A DNA stretch of 64,000 bases from Phycisphaerae bacterium (GCA_041478555.1 JBGOWI010000003.1:8408-72407), one strand, 5' to 3'; counted from the stretch's first letter, positions 9,033 to 42,619 are shown. Program-made: numbers and translations. The notes: a model not told the origin generated them from the sequence alone.

Positions 9033-10331
9033 ATGGATTTAACAACACTTGCAAAATCGGCCAAAAAAGCAGGTATTCTGCTCTCGGCAGCAAATACCGA
9101 ACGGAAAAACACCGCACTTAAAGCTATCGCCTGGGCTTTGAAGCAGAATGCCGCAGAGATTACAAGGGCAAATGAGCAGGATATCGAACAGGCTAAAGAT
9201 GAAAAATTAGCTCTCGCCTTGCTCAAAAGGCTCAAATTCGGCGAAAATAAAATCAATGACGTATGCAGCGGCATTGAGGACCTGATAAAGCTTGATGACC
9301 CTGTCGGGAAGACGCTCTATGCAATTCAGATGGATAAAGGCCTTGAGCTTTACAAGGTTAGCTGTCCCATCGGAGTAATCGGGGTTATTTTTGAATCCCG
9401 TCCTGATGCTTTGGTGCAGATTTCAACATTGTGTCTCAAGAGCGGCAATGCCGTCATTTTGAAAGGTGGCACAGAAGCGGCAAACACCAATAGTATTCTT
9501 GCCAAAATCATACACGATTCAAGCGTAAAGGCAGGCATACCTGAAAACTGGATTCAGCTCTTGCAAACCCGTTCTGATGTCCATGCGATGCTCGCTCTGG
9601 ATAAGTTCATAGACCTGGTAATTCCAAGGGGCTCAAATCAGTTTGTCCGCTATATTATGGATAGCACTAATATACCTGTGCTCGGCCATGCAGACGGTAT
9701 CTGCCACGTATATGTTGACAACCAGGCCGATATTGATATGGCAGTCAAAATAACAGTTGATTCCAAAACCCAGTATGTCGCGGTGTGCAATGCGGCTGAG
9801 ACGCTTCTGGTTCATAAGGATATTGCCGAAAGATTTCTGCCTGAAGTTAAAAGCGCTCTTGAAGCAAAAGGCGTTGAGCTTCGCGGCTGTGAAAAAACGA
9901 GAAAAATAATAGATATAAAACCTGCCGACGAAAAGGACTGGTTAACCGAGTATCTTGCTGAAATCCTGTCGATAAGGACAGTGGACTCGCTCGACCAGGC
10001 CATAGAACATATAAATACTTACGGCTCACATCATACGGACACGATTGTTACGCAAAGCCAAACGGCTGCTGCCGATTTTTTAGAGCTTGTCGATTCGGCA
10101 AATGTGTTTCTCAACGCAAGCACCCGCTTCAGTGATGGCTACCGTTACGGCCTTGGCGCCGAAGTCGGAATAAGCACCAGCAAAATTCACGCTCGCGGCC
10201 CTGTCGGCCTTGAAGGATTGGTTATATATAAATGGAAACTTCTCGGCAGCGGGCAAATTGTCGCTGATTATAGCGGCCCGAACGCAAAACAATTTACGCA
10301 CAAAAAACTGAAAAAGGGATTTCACTTATAA
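9033..10331 (+). CDS. proA: Gamma-glutamyl phosphate reductase
   Basis: 432 aa aldehyde-dehydrogenase-fold ProA (VIFESRPDA..., GSHHTD...). Its TAATG stop/start overlaps proB. Confidence 0.93.
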   Translation: MDLTTLAKSAKKAGILLSAANTERKNTALKAIAWALKQNAAEITRANEQDIEQAKDEKLALALLKRLKFGENKINDVCSGIEDLIKLDDPVGKTLYAIQMDKGLELYKVSCPIGVIGVIFESRPDALVQISTLCLKSGNAVILKGGTEAANTNSILAKIIHDSSVKAGIPENWIQLLQTRSDVHAMLALDKFIDLVIPRGSNQFVRYIMDSTNIPVLGHADGICHVYVDNQADIDMAVKITVDSKTQYVAVCNAAETLLVHKDIAERFLPEVKSALEAKGVELRGCEKTRKIIDIKPADEKDWLTEYLAEILSIRTVDSLDQAIEHINTYGSHHTDTIVTQSQTAAADFLELVDSANVFLNASTRFSDGYRYGLGAEVGISTSKIHARGPVGLEGLVIYKWKLLGSGQIVADYSGPNAKQFTHKKLKKGFHL

Positions 10332-27529: not shown

Positions 27530-27602
27530 AAATATTTTAAATTTCCTGTTGCAGACTTTTTTACACCCTGGTATTTTTTGTTTGTTCTTTTGAAAAAAAA
27601 TA

Positions 27603-27795
27603 TCTGATTGCAGGTCCGGCCTTTCAGGTCGGATATGTAAAAGGGAACACGGTGAAAATCCGTGGCGGTCGCGCCGCTGTAAGCGTCTGTCCTGATATAA
27701 TTCAGGAGGCCGAAAGGAGTTGTCCCACTGTTCTTTTTGGATGGGAAGGGTTCTTTCGGCGAAGCGCAAGTCAGAAAACCTGCCTGTGATTGGTG
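27603..27795 (+). promoter_or_regulatory. Cobalamin (B12) riboswitch
   Basis: Core AAAAGGGAACACGGTGAAAATCCGTGGCGGTCGCGCCGCTGTAAG, internal GTCCCACTG, and a B12-box-like AGTCAGAAAACCTGCC (27769-27784) all match the conserved cobalamin riboswitch blocks. Confidence 0.8.
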
Positions 27796-27871
27796 ATTTG
27801 TTGAGGGTTCTCGCGTAAGGAACGCCAGCAAATGCGCCCCTTAGGGGTGTTGTTTGTTTAGATATTTATAA

Positions 27872-27968: not shown

Positions 27969-28757
27969 ATGAGTACAAAGATTTTCACGATTTTGTCGGT
28001 AGTTTTAAGCATCGCTTTTATCGTAAATGCTTCAGTTGTAACTTTTGATGATAATCTGCTTTTGCCGGAGAGCCATTGGGGCGGTGCCGGCTCAGGTGAA
28101 ACTGGTTTTAGCAGCGGCGGAGTCAACTTTTATCATAATGATGGAGGGTATTCATGGGACGGATTTATTTACTCAAACATGACCGATACGACCACAGCCG
28201 GTTACGAAAATCAATTTAGCGCTTATGCCGGCGGAGGTGTCAACGGTTCGAATAATTATGCTATATCGGCTCTCAGCCTTAATTGGACCGGCAGTTATGA
28301 TGTTATCCCGACATCGATAAGTTTCGCAAACCCATGCGCAGTTTTTGGGGCTTATTTTACCAACACTACTTATGCTGCTTTAGATATGCTTGCAGGCAGT
28401 GGTTTCAGTAAGAAATTTGGCGGCGATACTGGCGGCGACGAAGACTGGTTTAAATTAACCGTTACCGGCAAAGACGCATCGGATTTGGTAACTGGTACAA
28501 TTGATTTCTATCTTGCTGATTATCGTTTTGAAGACAGTGGTCAGGATTATATAGTCGATAGCTGGGAATATATTGACTTGCATTCACTGGGTACGATAAA
28601 GAGTCTCGAATTTGCCCTCAGTTCCAGTGATGTTGGAGACTGGGGGATGAATACGCCTGCATATTTTGCTATGGATAATCTTGTAATTCCGGAACCGGCG
28701 ACTTTAATTTTGACGGGCTTGAGCGGATTATTGTTGTCTCGAAGGAGGAGAATATAA
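27969..28757 (+). CDS. Secreted DUF4465-like protein with a PEP-CTERM anchor
   Basis: Signal peptide; VVTFDD...ESHWGG...WDGFIYSNMTDTTTAGYENQFSAYAGGG...NYAI...WFKLTVTG...FYLADYRF...NTPAYFAMDNLVI resembles my recollection of the DUF4465 family. The C-terminus IPEPATLILTGLSGLLLSRRRRI is PEP-CTERM. Confidence 0.7.
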   Translation: MSTKIFTILSVVLSIAFIVNASVVTFDDNLLLPESHWGGAGSGETGFSSGGVNFYHNDGGYSWDGFIYSNMTDTTTAGYENQFSAYAGGGVNGSNNYAISALSLNWTGSYDVIPTSISFANPCAVFGAYFTNTTYAALDMLAGSGFSKKFGGDTGGDEDWFKLTVTGKDASDLVTGTIDFYLADYRFEDSGQDYIVDSWEYIDLHSLGTIKSLEFALSSSDVGDWGMNTPAYFAMDNLVIPEPATLILTGLSGLLLSRRRRI

Positions 28758-29669
28758 ATGTTAAAAAAAACTGTTTTGGTTTTTGTCTTTTTCTGCCCTG
28801 TTTTGCTGGGCGGTCCTTATGCTCCGCCGGCAGGTCAGGCAGGCTCAACAGCTATTGATATGAATGACCCCAATATCGTTGCCTGGGCTAAGGCTGCCGT
28901 TATTGAGCGCGGTTATATTGACATCAGCAGGCCTGAATTGGGATATGTCAGCTTTGGTGATGGTACAAATTGTCTCGGTCATGCTCAGTGCGACATTTAT
29001 AACGTGTATAGCGTGGTAAGTCTTGGTGATGGAGGAATGGCTACGCTCAGCTTTCAAAATCCAATAACAAATGGAGATGGATATGATTTCGCGGTTTTTG
29101 AAAACAGCTTCAGCGACAGCTTTTTAGAGCTTGGATTTGTTGAAGTCAGCAGCGATGGCAATAATTTCTTTTGTTTTGATGCTGTTTCGCTTACAGACCC
29201 TAATACTCAAGTCGGTACTTTCGGCAGTGTGGATGCGACTAATATCCATAATCTTGCCGGCAAATATAGAGCAGGTTACGGCACACCGTTTGACCTGCAG
29301 GAGCTTGCCGGTATCGAAGGTTTGGATGTTAATTCGATTACGCATGTAAGGATAATCGATGTGGTGGGCTGTATTCAGTCTGCTGATTTTAATAATGACG
29401 GATTTGTGAATTTTTCTGATTACAGCATACTAAATGCTGCGTATTTAAGTAAACCTCAGGATGCTCGATGGAATCAGCGATGCGATATCGCTGTTCCTTA
29501 TAGGGTTATTGACATGGCTGATATCGAACAGTTTATGTTTGAATGGCTTGCTGAATGGTCAAGCATGGACTCTCTTGGCAATAAAATAAATGACCCCTGG
29601 CCGACCCCCTTTTCCACCGGCGGTTTCGACCTGGATGCGGTAGGCGTGATTCATCAAAAGCAGCCATAG
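28758..29669 (+). CDS. Secreted hypothetical protein with a dockerin-like calcium-loop module
   Basis: Signal peptide MLKKTVLVFVFFCPVLLG; central GYDFAVFENSF...ELGFVEVSSDG block; ADFNNDGFVNFSDYSILNAAYL dockerin-like loop. The start codon directly abuts the upstream stop. Confidence 0.65.
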   Translation: MLKKTVLVFVFFCPVLLGGPYAPPAGQAGSTAIDMNDPNIVAWAKAAVIERGYIDISRPELGYVSFGDGTNCLGHAQCDIYNVYSVVSLGDGGMATLSFQNPITNGDGYDFAVFENSFSDSFLELGFVEVSSDGNNFFCFDAVSLTDPNTQVGTFGSVDATNIHNLAGKYRAGYGTPFDLQELAGIEGLDVNSITHVRIIDVVGCIQSADFNNDGFVNFSDYSILNAAYLSKPQDARWNQRCDIAVPYRVIDMADIEQFMFEWLAEWSSMDSLGNKINDPWPTPFSTGGFDLDAVGVIHQKQP

Positions 29670-29683
29670 GTTGAGAGTGATTT

Positions 29684-30466
29684 ATGATTGCATCAAAAAA
29701 AGCATTTACGCTTGTAGAACTGCTGGTTGTTATGGCAATAATAGCCTTGCTTATGGGTATTTTGATACCTACCCTCGGTTCGGCACGTTCGCAGGGCAAA
29801 GCAGTTGTTTGTAGAAGCAATCTTTATCAGCTTGTGCTGGCAAGTACTGGTTATGCGATGGAAAACGATGGTTATTTCGTCTTGGCGGCGCTGGATATTT
29901 ATACCACGAACAACCAGCGTTGGCATGGTGTACGTTGTAATAACAACAGTCCCTTTGACTCAAGCAAAAGCCCTATTTCCTCCTACCTCGTCGACGGCAA
30001 AATCAAACAATGCCCTCAAAAGGTTAACTTCAGAAAAGGAGACCCGTGGGAGTTTAACTATGAGGATGGATGCGGCGGATACGGCTATAATATGTTTTAT
30101 GTAGGCTCAAGAATATGGGAGGGGGATAGCGATGAAAATTGTAAAAAGCCCGTCAGAAATGTTGAAGTTGCCTCGTCGGCCCAAACAGTAATGTTCGCTG
30201 ATTGTGCAATGGCCAAAGCAGATAGAGGGAAGCCTTATTACTTGGAGTATTCATTTGCTGAACCGCTGTTTAACGGATGGGGCTATGCGTGGCCCTCGAT
30301 ACATTTCAGGCATAGGGGCAGGGCGAATGTCGGCTGGGCGGATGGACATACAAGTTCAGAGACAATGACTGATTTTAATATAGTTATTTATGATGGGATT
30401 AATTCATCCGATGTGATGCTTGGCTGGTTCGGGCCGCTTGACAACAGCTTGTTCGATTTGAAGTAA
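29684..30466 (+). CDS. Prepilin-type N-terminal cleavage/methylation domain protein of the DUF1559 (H-X9-DG) family
   Basis: KKAFTLVELLVVMAIIALLMGILIP (a class III signal) and HRGRANVGWADGH (H-X9-DG). It starts 14 nt after the previous gene. Confidence 0.85.
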   Translation: MIASKKAFTLVELLVVMAIIALLMGILIPTLGSARSQGKAVVCRSNLYQLVLASTGYAMENDGYFVLAALDIYTTNNQRWHGVRCNNNSPFDSSKSPISSYLVDGKIKQCPQKVNFRKGDPWEFNYEDGCGGYGYNMFYVGSRIWEGDSDENCKKPVRNVEVASSAQTVMFADCAMAKADRGKPYYLEYSFAEPLFNGWGYAWPSIHFRHRGRANVGWADGHTSSETMTDFNIVIYDGINSSDVMLGWFGPLDNSLFDLK

Positions 30467-35741: not shown

Positions 35742-36437
35742 GTTGTGGATTGACATCAGGTCGGGATTTGTTACACTAACCGTCAGGAAAACCGTCAGCC
35801 CCAGTATGTTGTGGATTGACATCAGGTCGGGATTTGTTACACTGCTTTCCAGGCAAAGGATTCAGCTTCGCCGGTTGTGGATTGACATCAGGTCGGGATT
35901 TGTTACACTTATGCGGCCGGCAGATATCGAAACGTCCGGGTTGTGGATTGACATCAGGTCGGGATTTGTTACACTCGATAAGAGCGGAGATGCCTGCAGA
36001 AGCACGTTGTGGATTGACATCAGGTCGGGATTTGTTACACTCTTTGCCATTCCGCATATTCCGTATGATGAGTTGTGGATTGACATCAGGTCGGGATTTG
36101 TTACACTTCGGGCAAGCCGACGTTCACGGACCATGCGGTTGTGGATTGACATCAGGTCGGGATTTGTTACACTGGAAAAGTTGTCCTATAGCTATAACAT
36201 CTAGTTGTGGATTGACATCAGGTCGGGATTTGTTACACTAACATATATTTGCGCCATTAGTCTATTCCCGTTGTGGATTGACATCAGGTCGGGATTTGTT
36301 ACACTGCTCGTAATGGCCGAAGACTACGGCAAGGCGTTGTGGATTGACATCAGGTCGGGATTTGTTACACTCAGATGTTTGATATCATAAAGTGGGTCAT
36401 TGTTGTGGATTGACATCAGGTCGGGATTTGTTACACT
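35742..36437 (+). CDS. PLACEHOLDER Confidence 0.
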
Positions 36438-36468
36438 ACCTGTTCCGCAACCTGAGCAATTGTAAGGA

Positions 36469-36504
36469 CTTGTGGACCGAACAGCCTAAAATAATTCGAG
36501 CTGT
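36469..36504 (+). repeat. Possible degenerate terminal CRISPR repeat (trailer end), overlapping the 3' end of cas2
   Basis: cTTGTGGAccGA matches 9 of the first 12 repeat positions after a 31-nt spacer-length gap. The rest has diverged. Confidence 0.4.
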
Positions 36505-36815
36505 TTGGGTGCTGGAGGTGTCGGTTTTCGCATTTTTCCCCAGAAAATCTGCATTTTTTCAAACTGTTTGTCAGTGATTGTAACAAGCCGAACCTCGCCA
36601 TCCGGCGGCAAAAAAATCTGTATCCTGCGGTAATGAACATCGGCATTTTCCTCACTTGCACAGTGCCTTGCATATACTGAGTATTGTAGCATAGCAAAGC
36701 CGTCTTTTAAAAGGTTTTTTCGAAAATGCGTATAATCTTTTCGTGCCTTTTCCGTATCCGTCGGCAAATCAAACATCGCAAAAATCCACACTGCCCTGTA
36801 CCCGCTTATTATCAT
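36486..36815 (-). CDS. cas2: CRISPR-associated endoribonuclease Cas2
   Basis: 109 aa, VWIFAMFDLPTDTEKARKDYTHFRKNLLKDGFAMLQYSVYARH is the Cas2 ferredoxin-fold pattern. It is adjacent to cas1 and the array. Confidence 0.92.
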   Translation of the reverse strand: MIISGYRAVWIFAMFDLPTDTEKARKDYTHFRKNLLKDGFAMLQYSVYARHCASEENADVHYRRIQIFLPPDGEVRLVTITDKQFEKMQIFWGKMRKPTPPAPKQLELF

Positions 36816-36918
36816 AAATCAATATTTGTTTAGCCGCCGCCGGCACGGCAGCGCGTCATTCCCGCGAAAGCGGGAATCCAGTTCCTTTTTATTTCTGCGG
36901 AATCCGTGAAATCCGCGG

Positions 36919-37806
36919 TTAAATTTTTGGTAATTCAATTTCCTTCTGTTCTCCGCAAAAGCATCTTACAAGCGATGCCGCTGTCCGATGAAGCCCGACC
37001 ATTAGCGGCCCTTTATAATCTGCAATTTCAACCTCATCATAAAGCACCTCAAGCAGTCTTGCTTTTATCGTCTGCGTTAATTCCTCCCAGTCTCCGCCTT
37101 CAACAATTTCCTTAACTTTCGCCTCAACAAATCCTCTGAAAGGCTCGACCAAATCATCTGCAAGGCAAAACGCGTTATACCTGTTTCGATGATGAAGTCC
37201 GACAGAAGGCAATAATCCTGCGCTGCAAATCGCACGCGCCACCGCCGCCCGCATTACCATATAACCGTAATTCAATAGATTATTCGGCGGCTTCCCTTCA
37301 GCATCTCTTCTGAATTCCAAACCTTGAATATAGGCACTCCAGAATAATTTGCTTGCCCTCGCCTCGATATTAGAAGGGTCGCCGCTGCGAACCTGACTTA
37401 TCAATGCTGTTAATGCTTTGTAAGTTTGCGTTTCGTCTTTGATAAGTTTTGCCTGATGTCTGATTTTCGCGCGTACTATCTGCTGCCAGAGTTTCTTTTT
37501 GAGCGGCTCTTTTGCGTTTATCTGTTTTGCGTATCTTTCGGTTTGGATTGTATTGGCTTCTATCGGCAAAAGCATCCCGGCTGGCAAATGATTGCTGTCA
37601 CAAAGCACCACAGCCGCGCCGCATTTTAATAATTCAGTAAAAACACAGTGTGTATAATTTGTCGCTTGATTATCGACTAAAAGTACGCCAATGTCTTCAC
37701 AGGGTATTGAGCTTGTATCTTTACCGTCCTGCTTAATAACTAACTGGCCGTATTTTATTGATAGAGATGTCCTTTCCCGCGAAATCTCTATTATCTTTTT
37801 AATCAA
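36919..37806 (-). CDS. cas1: CRISPR-associated endonuclease Cas1 (type II)
   Basis: 295 aa with conserved Cas1 blocks (NLLNYGYMVMRAAVARAICSAGLLPSVGLHHRNRYNAFCLADDLVEPFR). Confidence 0.95.
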   Translation of the reverse strand: MIKKIIEISRERTSLSIKYGQLVIKQDGKDTSSIPCEDIGVLLVDNQATNYTHCVFTELLKCGAAVVLCDSNHLPAGMLLPIEANTIQTERYAKQINAKEPLKKKLWQQIVRAKIRHQAKLIKDETQTYKALTALISQVRSGDPSNIEARASKLFWSAYIQGLEFRRDAEGKPPNNLLNYGYMVMRAAVARAICSAGLLPSVGLHHRNRYNAFCLADDLVEPFRGFVEAKVKEIVEGGDWEELTQTIKARLLEVLYDEVEIADYKGPLMVGLHRTAASLVRCFCGEQKEIELPKI

Positions 37807-37808
37807 AC

Positions 37809-40800
37809 TTAATCTCTAATTAGTTCCTTAACTTCGCCAAGCGGACTTATCCACACTTTAACAGGTGGTTGCCCTTCTTCAATGCCGAGATGTTGAATAT
37901 CGGAAGGCTTTAAACCGCCTGTTTTGCTGCCCGTTTTTTTGACTTCTTCTCTCGCTTTGGCTTTTTCTGTTTCTTTGTCTCTTCCTGCATCATAGTGAGG
38001 GGTAAAGTGTATTGTGCCGGTGCCATCTATCTTAAAAACAACAAAATACCCCGGCACTTTGGTTTCGGGATGTCGCATATAAACCATCTCGCCGATTGAT
38101 AAGGACATAACAAATTTGCCATTTTGGGAATCATCACGATTAATTGCAGGCAGAGGTTTTAGCCCGCTTGATTTTGGCGGATTTACTCTTTTTGCGGCAT
38201 CAAAATTTCTAATAACCTCACCGGTCCATTTTTCTTTTTCATTTTCTCTGATTTCTATGTGATGGTTATTCTGTGGCTCGTATGCCCTAATTGCTTTTTG
38301 GTGAGGGTCATATTCCATTTTACCGGTGCTTAAATTCCACTGCTTTCGTGGAATTGTTATTACAGTTGGAGACCGCAAAAGAGTAAATTGGCGGATAGGG
38401 ACTCCGCTTTTTAGAAACAGGCCTTTTTCTTTGACAAGTTTTTTTATTTCTTTTTCGCTGAAATTGTCGGGGTCTAACCCTTCAGTTCTCAGGCATTCTC
38501 TTATTTCTTCTCTAAACCATCTATCACGAATTACACCGGATTTCCCGGGTTTTACATCCGGCAGTTTAAGCATTTCTAATCTTATAGATTTTCGTTCCCG
38601 CTTTGATGAGCAGTTTTTCAGTTTTTCCCGCAGTTCATCCCAACCTTTAAGCACTTGTAAATGGTTTGGGGTCAGTTCAATAGCAAATTTGCGTAAGGTA
38701 AATTGTTCGGTCAAATTTCCATCCTTATCAAGTATTGGGCCGTATTGTGTATCATTATGGAAAGCCCCAACTATTTTTCGGGCGGCGGGCCTGTGAGAAA
38801 CTACCAAATTTCTCCATTCATTCATAACCTGCGCACGGAAACTTTCGACATTTCCCCATGGTGGGCTTATCAGTGGTCTCTCCGCAAGTTTTTTGCCCTC
38901 TTCTTCGGCTTTCTCAAGTTTTTGGAATAGCAGCGAAATTTGTTGCACTCTATCCGGCCCTGAGAGCGCTATAGCAACAGCGTCTAAGGCGTGATGCCTA
39001 TGGTCAGAACGGTTTTTTTCAAAAGGTTCTCCCTTTTTGCTGTCTGGGAAAAGCTGCCAATCTCTGCGCAAAAGTGCTGTATATCGCCCGCTTGTTGTAA
39101 AAACTCTTTTGATTCCATCTCTTTCTCCATTATAAAGAACATCTCGAAGCCAGTTAACAACTTGTTTTGCGGCGTATGCTGCATCTGTAAGTTGCGAAGC
39201 TACGAATTCGTCTAAATCTGGCGCATCTTTATGAAGATTATCCCACTTTACTAGATTTTTTTCCTTGAGATGCCTTAACCTCTGTTCAAACTTCTGAAAC
39301 CGTTCTTCGGTGAACCACTCTTTTGGGGTTTTGTTCCCTTTCCCACGGTTACAGCCAGTATGGCAAAGTAATAAATTACTCAGAAAGCTATTTCCTCCAC
39401 GACTCTCTGGTATTATGTGGTCGATTTCAACCCCATTTCCTTCTGCCGCAGTTTTTTCGCTGATAGCGTTGATTCCGTTACCACAATATGCACATTGCTC
39501 TTTCTGCTCTCGACAAAGTAATACCCTTTTAACGGCCTTTTCCTGCTGATTTTTGGTTTTTTGTTCCAAACCAAATTCTTCCATTATTTTTCTTTTTTCT
39601 TCTTCACGCTCTCGATTTTCAGATAGTTTTTTATTTCTCACAACCGCTGATTGTCTGGCTTCTCTTACCAGTTCAACTATTACTCTGTCAGGTTTACAAC
39701 CGAATTTTCTTATATGTTCCTGGATGTGCCGCTTTACTTCATGGATTGCCTTGCGGACAACAGGATTACTTAGCATTGCCGGCGCAGGCGGTAGTAAATC
39801 AGGATGTTTTTGTTGAAATCTCCGCATTGCATGATTACCACTGCCTCCTTTGAAACTATACCGTCTTCTTTGCTCATTCGTTGCTCCATTTGTCGCATCT
39901 TCTGCGAAAAGATTTCTTGCCTCATTAACCGTAAATCCGTCACGCATATATGGAAGCAAATTTTTTATAGCTCTCCTGGAATACTCCAGCCGATCTTCTG
40001 CTTTTGGCCGTTTTGTCCACGCTTCTATAAACTTTTCAGCCTGTTTCTCATCAAAGCCCCACCATTTTTTACAGCCTTCCGCTAAATACTTTTTGTCTTT
40101 TTCAGAGGTCGGGTCAAACTTTAATATGGCTTTATTTACTGAGTCTTTTTGTGCCGATGTAAGCTTCTCCCAATTCGATTCACTAATTGCACTAGAGATT
40201 ATTTCACGATAAAACCACCATGTGTTTAATTTTCTCTTTGGGTCAGCGTCTAAACTCAACGTATAAAGGGTTTTATTTTCTCCTTTATGAAGCCCTAATG
40301 CTTTTCTTGCTGTTGCAGCGGTAACGGTCTTTTGATCTTTTAGAACCTCAAAAACCTTTGGTTTTTCCTCGTTATTCAACGGTCTCGAAACTTCACCTGG
40401 CGGAGTTATCCTTATATTGTTTAATGTCTCAAGGACAAGATAATCCTGAGCGTACATATCAGCCTTGGGGCATTTAAGGTCAGTAGGTTCCAAATCGCAC
40501 CTTCCCATAGTTCCCATATCCCAGTATGTTTTACGCTGACCAAATAATATTCCTTTATATCTCCACGTTGCATCGCTCGAATTGTCATCAAGTTTTTTTC
40601 TGACAGGGTCAGTTAACTGATTTGCAAGTTCACCATTAAAAGATTTCTGTTTTTTCCACAGAGTATCAAATTCATTCCAGAGCAGGTCTCGGTCTGCACA
40701 AAATTCATATGTGGGTTCTTTGGCAGCGTTTGTCCGATTGCGAATTGCCTGTCCCACTTTTATAACATTGCCGTTTGCGTCTTTTTTCTGAAGAGGTGTT

Positions 40801-41357
40801 TTTCTTTCTTCGTAAAGCACTGCCATCAATTCCCCAAAGGTTCTTGCATTGCGATTTTTCATTTCCTCTTTCGCATGGTCGATTGCCCCTTTGATTTTCT
40901 TTGCCTCTTTGTCTTTTGTCTCTGTATTTTTGCTGTTCTCTTGTTCCTCTTTTTCAGTATTTTCTGGTTGTTCCGGCTCCTCGTTAAATCCATACGCTCC
41001 TCGTCGTTGCACAAGGTGCAATAGAACACGACCGAATTCACGAGGCGTAAGCTCTCCGTCAAGGCCTTTTTTTCTCAAAGACCATGGGTTTAATTTCATC
41101 TCTGTATCAGTGGGCGTCCAACTCAACTCCGCTAAGAATTTTCGCATTTGCCATTTCCTTTCGGCACGGCGTTCAATGCTTCTGCGTTGGCCACGATAGG
41201 TTCGTCTTGCTTGGTTTTTAGGTGCGCCGCGTTTGTCTTCTGATTCCTCTACCCCCGCAGGAAACACACCTACGCCCATTTTTATTATTCGCTCGTCTGT
41301 GTCAACTCCTGCTGAACCGACCGAATTTGTACCAATATCTAATCCCAACAATTTCAT
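37809..41357 (-). CDS. cas9: CRISPR-associated endonuclease Cas9, 1182 aa (type II-C architecture)
   Basis: RuvC-I LGLDIGTNSVGSA, Arg-rich bridge helix RRTYRGQRRSIERRAERK, RuvC-II IVELVREA, HNH EIDHIIPESRGGNSFLSNLLLCHTGCNRGKGNKTP and RuvC-III HHALDAVAIAL are all present. AGGAG SD upstream of ATG 41357. No csn2 or cas4 in the locus. Confidence 0.95.
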   Translation of the reverse strand: MKLLGLDIGTNSVGSAGVDTDERIIKMGVGVFPAGVEESEDKRGAPKNQARRTYRGQRRSIERRAERKWQMRKFLAELSWTPTDTEMKLNPWSLRKKGLDGELTPREFGRVLLHLVQRRGAYGFNEEPEQPENTEKEEQENSKNTETKDKEAKKIKGAIDHAKEEMKNRNARTFGELMAVLYEERKTPLQKKDANGNVIKVGQAIRNRTNAAKEPTYEFCADRDLLWNEFDTLWKKQKSFNGELANQLTDPVRKKLDDNSSDATWRYKGILFGQRKTYWDMGTMGRCDLEPTDLKCPKADMYAQDYLVLETLNNIRITPPGEVSRPLNNEEKPKVFEVLKDQKTVTAATARKALGLHKGENKTLYTLSLDADPKRKLNTWWFYREIISSAISESNWEKLTSAQKDSVNKAILKFDPTSEKDKKYLAEGCKKWWGFDEKQAEKFIEAWTKRPKAEDRLEYSRRAIKNLLPYMRDGFTVNEARNLFAEDATNGATNEQRRRYSFKGGSGNHAMRRFQQKHPDLLPPAPAMLSNPVVRKAIHEVKRHIQEHIRKFGCKPDRVIVELVREARQSAVVRNKKLSENREREEEKRKIMEEFGLEQKTKNQQEKAVKRVLLCREQKEQCAYCGNGINAISEKTAAEGNGVEIDHIIPESRGGNSFLSNLLLCHTGCNRGKGNKTPKEWFTEERFQKFEQRLRHLKEKNLVKWDNLHKDAPDLDEFVASQLTDAAYAAKQVVNWLRDVLYNGERDGIKRVFTTSGRYTALLRRDWQLFPDSKKGEPFEKNRSDHRHHALDAVAIALSGPDRVQQISLLFQKLEKAEEEGKKLAERPLISPPWGNVESFRAQVMNEWRNLVVSHRPAARKIVGAFHNDTQYGPILDKDGNLTEQFTLRKFAIELTPNHLQVLKGWDELREKLKNCSSKRERKSIRLEMLKLPDVKPGKSGVIRDRWFREEIRECLRTEGLDPDNFSEKEIKKLVKEKGLFLKSGVPIRQFTLLRSPTVITIPRKQWNLSTGKMEYDPHQKAIRAYEPQNNHHIEIRENEKEKWTGEVIRNFDAAKRVNPPKSSGLKPLPAINRDDSQNGKFVMSLSIGEMVYMRHPETKVPGYFVVFKIDGTGTIHFTPHYDAGRDKETEKAKAREEVKKTGSKTGGLKPSDIQHLGIEEGQPPVKVWISPLGEVKELIRD

Positions 41358-41388
41358 AAAACTCTCCTAATTTTATGTAAAAATTCTC

Positions 41389-41416
41389 TTGCAATATTTA
41401 TCAGAAACCCTATAAT
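41389..41416 (+). promoter_or_regulatory. Putative tracrRNA promoter (TTGCAA-16 nt-TATAAT)
   Basis: Hexamers at 41389-41394 and 41411-41416. The anti-repeat begins 8 nt after the -10 element. Confidence 0.5.
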
Positions 41417-41422
41417 GCCGCT

Positions 41423-41532
41423 TGTGTAACTAATCCCGGCTTGCGTTTTTTCACAACAAGACGAAAAATTCGCAGGCACCGCCGAAAGGCGACCGCTGTA
41501 GCCCGTGCAAACCACGGTTCTACAGCTTTTTT
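41423..41532 (+). ncRNA. Predicted tracrRNA (anti-repeat 41424-41457, internal hairpins, intrinsic terminator ending in T6 at 41527-41532)
   Basis: GTGTAACTAATCCCGGCTTGCGTTTTTTCACAAC is complementary to the CRISPR repeat (14-bp, 6-bp and 6-bp helices around an internal loop). It is followed by a cgcc-gaaa-ggcg hairpin and a gctgtag...ctacagc terminator stem. Confidence 0.75.
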
Positions 41533-41577
41533 ATATCTGCAATTTAGACACCTCATTAGAAAATGTTATTGTAATAA

Positions 41578-41605
41578 ATACCTCAAAATTTAGAGGTATT
41601 TTTTT
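41578..41605 (+). terminator. Second intrinsic terminator-like hairpin downstream of the tracrRNA
   Basis: Stem atacctc / gaggtat followed by a T-run of at least 7 (41599-41605). Confidence 0.4.
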
Positions 41606-42318
41606 CTCCACTGTGGTCTGGCCGCAGGAATTTTACCAAAGGAACCTCGAATTGTCCACATAACAAATTTTGCGCAAGTCGTAGTTGCAAAAAACGCTCG
41701 AAATTCGTAAAAACTCCTCATTTCTTGGTAATTTTAGGGTAAAAAAACGAAAAAAACGAAAAAATTGAAAATTTCCACCCTCATTTTTAGCGTAATTTTA
41801 AAAACTTGCGCAAATGTCAAAAAAACTTGCGCAAATTTTCGAGAAAATCGTTCATAACTCCTTTATTTTCGTGGTAGTTTTTATCATAAGTCTTTATTTT
41901 ATGTAGTCGATTTTGCCTGCCCTGAGCGCCTGTGGTGAGCGTAGTCGAACCATGTCGAATGGGCCATAAGTCCTTATTTTTTATTAACTGTTTGTGTTGT
42001 AAATCCTTATTTCTTGTCGTCGATTTTTTGAAAATTTTGAATTTTGGTAATTCGAATTTGTTTCCACCGTAAGGTGTCCTGTGGAGGATTTCGATATTCG
42101 GATTTCGGATTTCGGATCTATCTTCTTTACGTCCTGAATATGTAATTTTGACTTTAAACCTTTGTTAATATAGGGTTATGAATAAGCTAAATTTATTTTT
42201 TATTTGGATTTTGCCGAATTTTTTGTTGTCAAATTGGCTTGACTTTTGTATTATTTCCGCCTCAAATTGTGTAATTTGTAAAACGTTGCGTTTATGTTGT
42301 TTTTGAAAGGGATTTTTT

Positions 42319-42544: not shown

Positions 42545-42619
42545 GGCCCCATCGTCTAGGCCGGTCCAGGACACCGGGTTTTCAACCCGGCAACAGGGGT
42601 TCGAATCCCCTTGGGGCTA
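42545..42619 (+). tRNA. tRNA-Glu (anticodon UUC)
   Basis: GGCCCCATCGTCTAGGCCGGTCCAGGACACCGGGTTTTCAACCCGGCAACAGGGGTTCGAATCCCCTTGGGGCTA forms a cloverleaf with anticodon loop TTTTCAA. Confidence 0.9.

What the first reader, a model, noticed from the sequence alone, without database searches (positions are those of the whole stretch)
35742..41532. Complete, apparently intact type II-C CRISPR-Cas9 locus with an uncharacterised 1182-aa Cas9
Seen in sequence: the locus runs array (11 identical 36-nt repeats, 10 unique 30-nt spacers, a possible 11th 31-nt spacer and a degenerate repeat), cas2, cas1, cas9, tracrRNA. No csn2 or cas4 is present, which is the type II-C layout. All catalytic motifs of both Cas9 nuclease domains are present (DIGTNS, IVELVRE, DHIIP...N, HHALDA). 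The protein has an acidic low-complexity insertion (EEPEQPENTEKEEQENSKNTETKDKEAKK) after the bridge helix and is longer than most II-C enzymes. By eye, none of the spacers matches anything else in this window, so I see no self-targeting here. The PAM cannot be derived from this sequence alone. A Cas9 from this poorly sampled lineage, with its guide RNAs fully predictable, is a candidate for a new PAM and new tool properties.
Basis: partly seen in the sequence, partly recalled or inferred. Interest (0 to 1): 0.6.

Follow-up and report, generated by a model that had tools for sequence, protein, structure and literature searches.

The report
Intact type II-C CRISPR-Cas9 locus
This is a complete, apparently working CRISPR-Cas9 immune locus of the Neisseria-like (type II-C) kind in an uncultured planctomycete; its Cas9 has not been studied, but it is one ordinary member of a large clade already seen in metagenomes.

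Summary
Window 35742-41532 contains a CRISPR array (11 identical 36-nt repeats, 10 unique 30-nt spacers), cas2, cas1, a 1182-aa cas9 with all catalytic residues, and a tracrRNA gene with its own promoter and terminator. There is no csn2 or cas4, so it is type II-C.

- **Host:** an uncultured Planctomycetota genome (Phycisphaerae/Sedimentisphaerales).
- **Relatives:** more than 100 metagenomic Cas9 homologues share 45-63% identity, and one genome with about 98% identical flanks has a 96% identical Cas9. The closest solved structures (Nme1Cas9, ThermoCas9, GeoCas9) share only about 20% identity.
- **Additions:** crRNAs and tracrRNA lie on the + strand, opposite to the cas genes. Every repeat carries a full sigma-70-type promoter (TTGACA-16 nt-TGnTACACT), as in Neisseria and Campylobacter II-C systems. 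Repeat and anti-repeat covary across nine loci.
- **Correction:** the "11th spacer plus degenerate repeat" is a clade-conserved, covarying 48-nt hairpin element next to cas2, probably the leader.
- **Acidic insert:** it is a disordered linker of variable length found across the whole clade.
- **Targets:** one spacer matches a phage major-capsid gene at 27/30. The PAM remains unknown.

Verdict: a new member of a known kind, of modest interest.

The parts
35742..36437 (+). CRISPR array: 11 identical 36-nt repeats and 10 unique 30-nt spacers (W1 35778-35807 to W10 36372-36401). crRNA sense is the + strand, so each spacer is followed by the repeat that pairs with the tracrRNA.
   Evidence: Searches give the repeats and spacers. 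The strand is inferred from the tracrRNA strand.
35750..36437 (+). Repeat-embedded promoters, one per repeat: TTGACA (repeat nt 9-14), a 16-nt gap, then TG-n-TACACT (the last 9 nt of the repeat). Transcripts are predicted to start about 6-8 nt into the following spacer.
   Evidence: One search finds 11 sites, each matching 10 of 12 consensus positions plus TG. The TTG and the TA(C/T)A(C/A)T are kept at the same positions in the repeats of 8 relatives. The Neisseria/Campylobacter precedent is in PMC8616872 and PMC12477760.
36438..36485 (.). Conserved 48-nt element between the last full repeat and the cas2 stop codon. It forms a hairpin in relatives but the stem is eroded here. Candidate leader (acquisition end) and/or insulator against read-through into cas2.
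   Evidence: 47-49 nt in all 9 arrays, with a conserved repeat-adjacent sequence; 86% of cells paired against 30-45% when slid, and 6 pairs with compensatory changes; z -9.7, -5.9 and -7.5 in relatives, -1.66 in the window.
36486..36815 (-). cas2 (109 aa from the first ATG; relatives are called at 96 or 109 aa).
   Evidence: PF09827; TIGR01573, 68.6 bits; 94% identity to the L015 Cas2.
36816..36918 (.). cas1-cas2 intergenic spacer containing a perfect palindrome, ATTCCCGCGAAAGCGGGAAT (36858-36877). It is not part of the conserved system, because cas1 and cas2 overlap in most relatives.
   Evidence: and the gene tables.
36919..37806 (-). cas1 (295 aa, TTG start). It begins 2 nt after the cas9 stop codon.
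   Evidence: TIGR03639 cas1_NMENI, 258.6 bits.
37809..41357 (-). cas9, 1182 aa. Catalytic residues: RuvC D7, E562, H789, D792; HNH D646, H647, N670. Disordered acidic linker at about residues 124-155.
41389..41416 (+). tracrRNA promoter: TTGCAA, a 16-nt gap, then TATAAT. The predicted start is at about 41423.
   Evidence: A similar hexamer pair (TTGnnn and a -10-like hexamer) can be read at the same place in 12 related loci.
41423..41532 (+). tracrRNA: anti-repeat 41423-41457, conserved linker AAGACGAAAAAUUCGCAGGCACC, small hairpin GCC-GAAA-GGC at 41481-41490, and a terminator hairpin ending at 41526 followed by a T-run at 41527-41532.
   Evidence: One search shows compensatory pairs in the terminator. 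Searches give the duplex with the repeat (19/21 and 8/8 pairs) and the covariation across 9 loci.

Best explanation
This is a functional type II-C CRISPR-Cas9 adaptive immune locus in the chromosome of an uncultured Planctomycetota bacterium (Phycisphaerae/Sedimentisphaerales). It works like the Neisseria meningitidis system.

**Shown by sequence and comparison**
- cas9, cas1 and cas2 are intact and lie on the - strand.
- The array and the tracrRNA gene lie on the + strand.
- The tracrRNA has its own sigma-70-type promoter and intrinsic terminator.
- Its anti-repeat pairs with the repeat as an 8-bp lower stem, an internal loop and a roughly 21-bp upper stem.

**Inferred**
- Each repeat acts as a promoter (TTGACA-16 nt-TGnTACACT). 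Each crRNA is therefore transcribed on its own, starting about 6-8 nt into a spacer and running into the next repeat. This yields a guide of about 23-24 nt without any need for leader-driven pre-crRNA.
- Cas9 loaded with crRNA:tracrRNA cuts PAM-flanked phage DNA with its HNH and RuvC sites.
- Cas1-Cas2 add spacers at the cas2-proximal end, next to the conserved 48-nt element. That would make W10 the youngest spacer.

The PAM is unknown.
For: **Genes and catalytic residues:**

**Fold:** the AlphaFold2 model (mean pLDDT 81.7) best matches Nme1Cas9, ThermoCas9, GeoCas9 and HpaCas9 (Foldseek E down to 5e-39). The HMMER search of PDB sequences gives the same families.

**tracrRNA:** it sits at the same place and on the same strand, with promoter and terminator, in 13 loci. 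Compensatory changes occur in its terminator hairpin. Repeat and anti-repeat covary at 10 or more positions across 9 loci, for example CG/AT, TA/CG and GC/CG swaps. The cofold energy is -69 kcal/mol.

**Repeat promoters:**, with the key bases conserved in divergent repeats. The precedent is II-C crRNAs made from repeat-embedded promoters that start at the 6th nt of each spacer (PMC12477760, PMC8616872).

**Signs of activity**
- All 11 repeats are identical.
- A relative at the same chromosomal site, about 98% identical in the flanks and 96% in Cas9, has a completely different set of 15 spacers.
- Two of that relative's spacers are variants of one protospacer.
- Window spacer W5 matches a phage major capsid protein E gene at 27/30, in frame.

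**Host:** MurA is 85-91% identical to Planctomycetes, Sedimentisphaerales and Phycisphaerae MAG proteins.
Against: - There is no expression or cleavage data.
- Sigma-70 consensus matches are not proof of promoter use, and planctomycete promoters are poorly known. The TG of the extended -10 is lost in the 96% relative.
- Only one protospacer-like match was found. It has 3 mismatches, one in the PAM-proximal third, and lies on a GC-rich viral contig that is probably only a relative of the true target.
- All other spacer searches were empty.
- The hairpin in the 48-nt element is eroded in the window (z -1.66), so whatever it does may be weakened here.
- Which end of the array takes up spacers is inferred only from flank conservation, because the two related arrays share no spacer.
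Confidence: 0.85

Rival explanations
1. The locus is a decaying or silent remnant: cas genes and array are present but no longer used for immunity.
For: - No exact protospacer was found for any spacer.
- The hairpin of the cas2-proximal element is eroded in the window compared with relatives.
- One mismatch lies in the upper stem of the repeat:anti-repeat duplex.
- About 100 nt of foreign sequence is inserted between cas1 and cas2.
Against: - All three ORFs are full length, and every catalytic residue is kept.
- All 11 repeats are identical.
- The tracrRNA promoter, anti-repeat and terminator are intact.
- The spacer set has turned over completely between two genomes that are 98% identical in the flanks.
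- Missing protospacers are the usual result for environmental spacers.
Confidence: 0.07
2. The array is read from the - strand together with the cas operon (canonical leader-driven pre-crRNA). The guides would then be the reverse complements of what I propose, and the PAM would lie on the other side of the protospacer.
For: - The array lies directly downstream of cas2 on the same strand, so operon read-through is physically possible.
- The 48-nt element occupies the place where a II-A leader would sit.
Against: - A - strand crRNA could not pair with the tracrRNA. In 13 loci the tracrRNA has its promoter and terminator on the strand opposite to cas9.
- In + sense the repeat begins GTTGTGG, and its first 8 nt pair with the 3' end of the anti-repeat, as in other Cas9 guides.
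- The promoter-like hexamers in the repeats face the + direction.
Confidence: 0.04
3. The Cas9 is already characterised, being nearly identical to a published or structurally solved orthologue, so nothing new could be learned from it.
For: NCBI pipelines already label relatives as 'type II CRISPR RNA-guided endonuclease Cas9'. Very large Cas9 and PAM catalogues exist, with 62,542 Cas9 clusters (PMC12996302).
Against: - The best solved structures share only about 20-21% identity (HMMER E about 1e-46 over partial stretches).
- Apart from a 96% identical metagenomic relative, the closest sequences are unnamed metagenomic proteins at no more than 63% identity.
- Only one paper in the held library contains both 'Cas9' and 'Phycisphaerae', and it is a general metagenomics software preprint that I did not open.
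- The supplements of the 79-orthologue catalogue do not mention Planctomycetes, Phycisphaerae, Sedimentisphaerales or Pirellulales.
- I could not query CRISPR-PAMdb itself.
Confidence: 0.04

Closest known systems
Neisseria meningitidis type II-C CRISPR-Cas9 (Nme1Cas9 system, strain 8013)
   Same: - The gene content is cas9, cas1, cas2, tracrRNA and array, with no csn2 or cas4.
- Repeats are 36 nt and spacers 30 nt.
- The repeat starts GTTGT and ends in a -10-like hexamer preceded by TG (my recollection of the Nme repeat is ...TGCTACAAT; here it is ...TGTTACACT).
- crRNAs are predicted to be made one by one from promoters inside the repeats (PMC8616872, PMC12477760).
- Nme1Cas9 is the best structural match to the Cas9 model.
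- Cas1 matches the cas1_NMENI model.
   Different: - Identity to Nme1Cas9 is only about 21% in the structural alignment, and this protein is about 100 aa longer (1182 against 1082 aa).
- The repeat also carries a perfect -35 hexamer, TTGACA.
- The tracrRNA lies upstream of cas9 on the opposite strand.
- A conserved hairpin element sits between the array and cas2.
- The host phylum is different (Planctomycetota).
- The PAM is unknown.
ThermoCas9 / GeoCas9 (Geobacillus type II-C Cas9)
   Same: These give the best sequence-level match among solved structures (9ar4, E 2.8e-46; 8jtj, 8uza) and have the same domain order. The Foldseek E-value is about 1e-37.
   Different: Identity is about 20%. The guide scaffolds are different. 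There is no evidence that the N4C-type PAMs of those enzymes apply here.
Unnamed clade of Planctomycetota Cas9 proteins in MAGs (for example Planctomycetes bacterium B3_Pla, Sedimentisphaerales and Phycisphaerae bacteria, Planctomycetes bacterium GWF2_41_51)
   Same: - Lengths are mostly 1150-1250 aa, all with an acidic linker.
- They share the tracrRNA position and tail, the repeat family (GTTGYGR...TTAYAMT), the 48-nt element next to cas2, and the II-C gene order.
- The window clearly belongs to this clade.
   Different: - Identity is 45-63%, except for one 96% relative.
- The window pairs a 'group A' Cas9 with the Cas1, Cas2, repeat and tracrRNA type of the GWF2_41_51-like locus.
- No member has been studied experimentally as far as I could find.

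Membership tests
Type II CRISPR-Cas (Cas9 systems) | A single large effector with a split RuvC domain and an inserted HNH domain, with catalytic residues intact. | tested here: met
   TIGR01865 scores 521 bits against a cut-off of 100. Pfam finds RuvC_III, HNH_4 and Cas9_a. D7, E562, D646/H647, N670 and H789/D792 are invariant in 60 relatives. The fold matches Cas9 structures.
Type II CRISPR-Cas (Cas9 systems) | A tracrRNA with an anti-repeat complementary to the CRISPR repeat. | tested here: met
   The anti-repeat lies at 41423-41457, with 19/21 and 8/8 pairs to the repeat and covariation across 9 loci. No Rfam family reached its gathering score in the cas9-tracrRNA region.
Subtype II-C | The adaptation module is only cas1 and cas2, with no csn2 (II-A) and no cas4 (II-B). 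| tested here: met
   Cas1 and Cas2 are identified. No other credible ORF lies between the HEAT-repeat gene (ends 35657) and tRNA-Glu (42545), apart from a ferredoxin gene. The gene tables of 7 relatives show the same three genes.
Subtype II-C | The Cas9 groups with II-C enzymes rather than with II-A, II-B or II-D. | tested here: met
   The top structural and sequence matches are Nme1, Thermo, Geo and Hpa Cas9, all II-C. The Cas9d (II-D) model scores 159 bits against a cut-off of 375. No formal phylogeny was made.
Neisseria/Campylobacter-style 'processing-independent' crRNA biogenesis | A promoter inside every repeat, with the -10 at the 3' end of the repeat, facing the next spacer. | tested here: met
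   There are 11 sites of TTGACA-16-TG-n-TACACT. The TTG and the TAYAMT are conserved in 8 divergent repeats. This is sequence evidence only.
Neisseria/Campylobacter-style 'processing-independent' crRNA biogenesis | crRNA 5' ends map inside spacers, and RNase III is dispensable. | not testable with these tools
   This needs primary-transcript RNA-seq or genetics. Precedent: transcripts start at the 6th nt of each spacer in N. meningitidis (PMC12477760).
Functional Cas9 nuclease with a defined PAM | PAM-dependent, RNA-guided cleavage of double-stranded DNA. | not testable with these tools
   Only one 27/30 protospacer-like match was found (3' flank CGTGGTGC), so no PAM can be derived.

The most novel reading that the evidence does not exclude
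The planctomycete II-C clade may hold two things not yet described for Cas9 systems.

1. A structured, covarying hairpin 'leader' lies at the transcription-downstream end of an array whose repeats are complete promoters. If so, acquisition and transcription polarity are uncoupled, and the hairpin may also shield cas2 from antisense read-through.
2. Cas9 genes may exchange freely relative to a shared Cas1, Cas2, repeat and tracrRNA module. If so, Cas9 proteins only about 50% identical would use nearly the same guide scaffold, perhaps with different PAMs.
Probability: 0.3. Interest if true: 0.45.

Novelty: new member of a known kind. Interest (0 to 1): 0.27.

Why it matters
In practice this is one more uncharacterised Cas9 whose two guide RNAs can be predicted with confidence, because promoter, anti-repeat, hairpins and terminator are all supported by comparison across 13 loci. 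It could go straight into a PAM screen.

It shares only about 20% identity with any solved Cas9, so its PAM and properties cannot be guessed from known enzymes. But tens of thousands of Cas9 clusters are already catalogued (PMC12996302), so one more uncharacterised member is not surprising in itself.

The biology of the clade is of some specialist interest for three reasons:
- Repeat-embedded promoters extend to a phylum far from Neisseria and Campylobacter.
- A conserved hairpin element lies beside cas2.
- The effector appears to have been shuffled against the adaptation and RNA module.

Tried and rejected
**Spacer targets**
- BLAST of all 25 spacers (10 from the window, 15 from the 96% relative) against GenBank phages found nothing.
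- I used all eight IMG/VR scans. Two were single patterns. Six were merged two-spacer IUPAC patterns of about 40-44 bits, designed.
- The only hit was W5, at 27/30, in a phage capsid gene.
- Window spacers W2 and W4 were never searched in the viral contigs.
- No PAM could be derived.

**Window's own genome.** The genome-collection scan did not return it, only three relatives at 55-58% identity.

**Recombination inside cas9.** A sliding-window identity profile shows group A closer than group B along almost the whole protein, with no visible breakpoint. The discordance is therefore between genes, not within cas9.

**Acidic insert as a special feature.** Rejected: it is a clade-wide linker of variable length and is modelled as disordered.

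**Degenerate terminal repeat.** Rejected in favour of a conserved hairpin element.

**Other copies in the window.** There is no second tracrRNA, orphan repeat or scaRNA-like copy.

**Palindrome at 36858-36877.** It looks like a repeated-element motif, but it occurs only once in the window.

**Rfam.** No family reached its gathering score in the cas9-tracrRNA region.

**Literature.** The original N. meningitidis paper (PMC3694421) is not held, so I cite later papers for the repeat-promoter mechanism.


Full report
**1. What is there**

Window 35742-36437 holds 11 identical copies of the 36-nt repeat GTTGTGGATTGACATCAGGTCGGGATTTGTTACACT. They recur every 66 nt and enclose 10 different 30-nt spacers.

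Three genes follow on the - strand:
- cas2, 36486-36815: PF09827; TIGR01573, 68.6 bits.
- cas1, 36919-37806: TIGR03639 cas1_NMENI, 258.6 bits.
- cas9, 37809-41357, 1182 aa: TIGR01865, 521 bits; Pfam RuvC_III, HNH_4, Cas9_a.

The neighbours are a HEAT-repeat protein, a ferredoxin gene, tRNA-Glu, a 175-aa ORF with no family match, and M16 peptidases. None is a cas gene, and none recurs next to the related loci. The gene content is therefore type II-C. The type II-D (Cas9d) model scores far below its cut-off.

The window has 45.9% G+C. No spacer matches elsewhere in the window at up to 7 mismatches. There is no further repeat-like or anti-repeat-like copy.

**2. The Cas9**

They are invariant in an alignment of 60 clade members.

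An AlphaFold2 model built on that alignment has mean pLDDT 81.7. Its best Foldseek matches are all type II-C: Nme1Cas9 (E 4.9e-39, 21% identity), ThermoCas9, GeoCas9 and HpaCas9. SaCas9 and St1Cas9 follow. A HMMER search of PDB sequences gives the same picture, with E about 1e-46 over partial stretches.

The acidic stretch after the RRGAYGF motif is modelled as disordered, with pLDDT below 50 for residues 126-144. Every clade member has an acidic linker at this point. The stretch I measured ranges from 27 to 49 aa, and the window is at the long end. It is a variable linker, not a distinguishing insertion.

**3. Whose genome it is, and how well sampled**

The protein search returned 707 homologues. 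More than 100 share 45-63% identity and are mostly 1150-1250 aa long. Those that carry a name are labelled Planctomycetes, Phycisphaerae or Sedimentisphaerales MAG proteins. The window's MurA is 85-91% identical to proteins of the same groups. The genome-collection scan returned Sedimentisphaerales and 'Pirellulales' MAGs.

One relative is very close. Contig Ga0315291_10000566 (L002; the same locus was also found on an ENA contig, L003) has a 96% identical Cas9 at the same chromosomal site. Its flanks are about 98% identical to the window, and cas1-cas9-tracrRNA about 95%.

The lineage is uncultured but not poorly sampled. I found no paper characterising a Cas9 from it, and it is not mentioned in the supplements of the 79-orthologue catalogue. 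For scale, 62,542 Cas9 clusters have been catalogued (PMC12996302).

**4. The guide RNAs**

About 65 nt upstream of the cas9 start codon, on the opposite (+) strand, lies a gene with these parts:
- A promoter, TTGCAA-16 nt-TATAAT, at 41389-41416.
- A 35-nt anti-repeat at 41423-41457.
- A conserved linker.
- A small GCC-GAAA-GGC hairpin.
- A terminator hairpin followed by a T-run ending at 41532.

The same gene, at the same place and on the same strand with a promoter and a terminator, is present in 12 other loci whose Cas9 is 48-97% identical. Its terminator hairpin shows compensatory changes, and the small hairpin swaps a GAAA loop for UUCG.

The repeat and anti-repeat form an 8-bp lower stem, an internal loop and a roughly 21-bp upper stem. 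In the window, 19/21 and 8/8 positions pair, and the cofold energy is -69 kcal/mol. Across nine loci the two partners change together at ten or more positions.

The tracrRNA is a + strand RNA, so the crRNAs must also be + strand RNAs. The array is therefore read towards cas2, convergently with the cas operon.

**5. Promoters in the repeats**

The promoter scan found the same site in all 11 repeats on the + strand. It consists of a perfect -35 hexamer (TTGACA), a 16-nt gap, and an extended -10 (TG-n-TACACT) that forms the last 9 nt of the repeat.

In eight related arrays the repeats differ at up to 13 of 36 positions. They still keep TTG at the -35 position and TA(C/T)A(C/A)T as the last six bases, including a perfect TATAAT in L011.

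This is the arrangement known from N. meningitidis and C. jejuni, where II-C crRNAs are made individually from repeat-embedded promoters and start at the 6th nt of each spacer (PMC8616872; PMC12477760). I infer the same here, giving guides of about 23-24 nt. This step is inferred from sequence and has not been shown.

**6. The supposed 11th spacer**

The 48 nt between the last full repeat and the cas2 stop codon (36438-36485) are not a spacer followed by a decayed repeat.
- The distance is 47-49 nt in all nine arrays.
- The repeat-adjacent part is conserved, for example ACCTGTTCCGCAACCTG in the window against ACCTTTTCCGTTACCTG in L015.
- The element folds into a hairpin that is a perfect 21-bp stem in L014.
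- On the alignment, 86% of cells pair, against 30-45% when the partner is slid. Six of 12 pairs show compensatory changes.

In contrast, the other flank of the array is unrelated between the window and L015, although their repeats are 35/36 identical. The cas2-proximal element is thus the only conserved array flank.

I read it as the leader, meaning the end where Cas1-Cas2 insert spacers. A leader essential for acquisition is documented for the N. meningitidis II-C array (PMC12477760). It may also stop transcripts from the last repeat's promoter running antisense into cas2. In the window the stem is eroded (z -1.66). This assignment is a hypothesis.

**7. Signs of use**

The 96% relative carries 16 repeats, which differ from the window's repeat at two bases, and 15 spacers. 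None of those spacers is shared with the window. The array has therefore turned over completely within a species-level distance. Two of the relative's spacers are variants of one protospacer.

Window spacer W5 (36042-36071) matches the viral contig IMGVR_UViG_3300044922_001097 at 27/30.
- The match lies in frame within a gene that scores 366 bits for phage major capsid protein E. That gene sits next to a head-decoration protein D gene and a tail protein Z gene.
- The spacer encodes FAIPHIPYDD where the contig encodes FVIPHIPHDD.
- The contig region around the match is visibly GC-rich.

I therefore take the contig as a relative of the true target. Its 3' flank, CGTGGTGC, is one unreliable data point, and the PAM stays unknown. 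All other spacer searches were empty.

**8. Side finding: discordant modules**

The window's Cas9 is 60-63% identical to one group of loci (L009, L010, L014) and 51% identical to that of L015. The rest of the locus points the other way:
- Its Cas1 (80%) and Cas2 (94%) are closest to L015.
- Its repeat is 35/36 identical to L015's.
- The tracrRNA tail and the gene spacing are also closest to L015: cas1 starts 2 nt after cas9, and a gap of about 100 nt separates cas1 from cas2.

L016 shows the opposite pairing. No breakpoint is visible inside cas9. The effector and the adaptation/RNA module have therefore been exchanged at least once in this clade. Such exchange is possible because the tracrRNA tail is nearly constant across the clade.

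**9. Verdict**

The locus is a new, uncharacterised member of a known kind (type II-C, Neisseria-like biogenesis), within a clade that is already abundant in metagenomes.

Its practical value is a Cas9 far from any solved enzyme, with well-supported guide RNAs that are ready for a PAM screen. Its biological interest lies in the clade-level features of sections 5, 6 and 8. Interest is modest.

Noticed in passing
L002 about 9525-9680 (- strand of the locus, i.e. the tracrRNA strand); absent from the window, where 41538-41774 replaces a 630-nt stretch: The 96% relative carries a second, diverged tracrRNA-like gene about 230 nt beyond the first. Its anti-repeat (GTGTAACTAATCCTGACCTGTGGTCGTTGTAGTTCACAAT) is closer to the repeat than that of the first tracrRNA. 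It has a different multi-hairpin tail and its own T-run terminator. It may be a leftover of a module exchange, or a second guide scaffold.
   Followed up: partly
window 36486-41532 compared with L015, L016, L009, L010 and L014: The genes disagree about relationships. The window's Cas9 is closest to group A (60-63%) and 51% identical to L015's. Its Cas1 (80%), Cas2 (94%), repeat (35/36) and tracrRNA tail are closest to L015. L016 shows the reverse pairing. No breakpoint is visible inside cas9.
   Followed up: partly
window 36816-36918 (palindrome at 36858-36877): About 100 nt lie between cas1 and cas2, which overlap in most relatives. The stretch contains a perfect 20-nt palindrome, ATTCCCGCGAAAGCGGGAAT, that occurs only once in the window. 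The 96% relative has unrelated sequence at the same spot. It looks like a small variable insert.
   Followed up: partly
window 41533-42318, next to tRNA-Glu at 42545-42619: About 790 nt of non-coding DNA lie between the tracrRNA and a small ferredoxin gene. They contain a second terminator-like hairpin (41576-41601), a direct repeat (41877-41914 and 41990-42027) and short tandem motifs. Parts differ between the window and the 96% relative. A promoter-like site on the - strand (41658-41630) would send cas9 transcripts antisense through the tracrRNA gene.
   Followed up: no
L002 array, spacers R4 and R5: Two adjacent spacers are 24/30 identical (GCGGTGATTACCCGCAAGCTATTATGTTCG and GCTCTGATTATCCTCAAGCTGTTATGTTCG). 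The same site was therefore sampled from two variants of one invader. No protospacer was found in the viral or metagenome contigs.
   Followed up: partly
L015 3322-4611; L009 8170-9184; L011 621-1646; L016 830-1423; L010 278-1329: In other genomes the related II-C loci sit beside mobile-element or phage-like genes: an integrase, a DDE transposase, a CI-like repressor with an S24 peptidase domain, a P4 cII-like gene, and an HTH/Fic pair. This fits horizontal movement of the locus.
   Followed up: no
window 27595-27801 (+): A cobalamin riboswitch (Rfam RF00174, 95 bits) lies upstream of a run of + strand ORFs (27969-30466). It is unrelated to the CRISPR locus.
   Followed up: no
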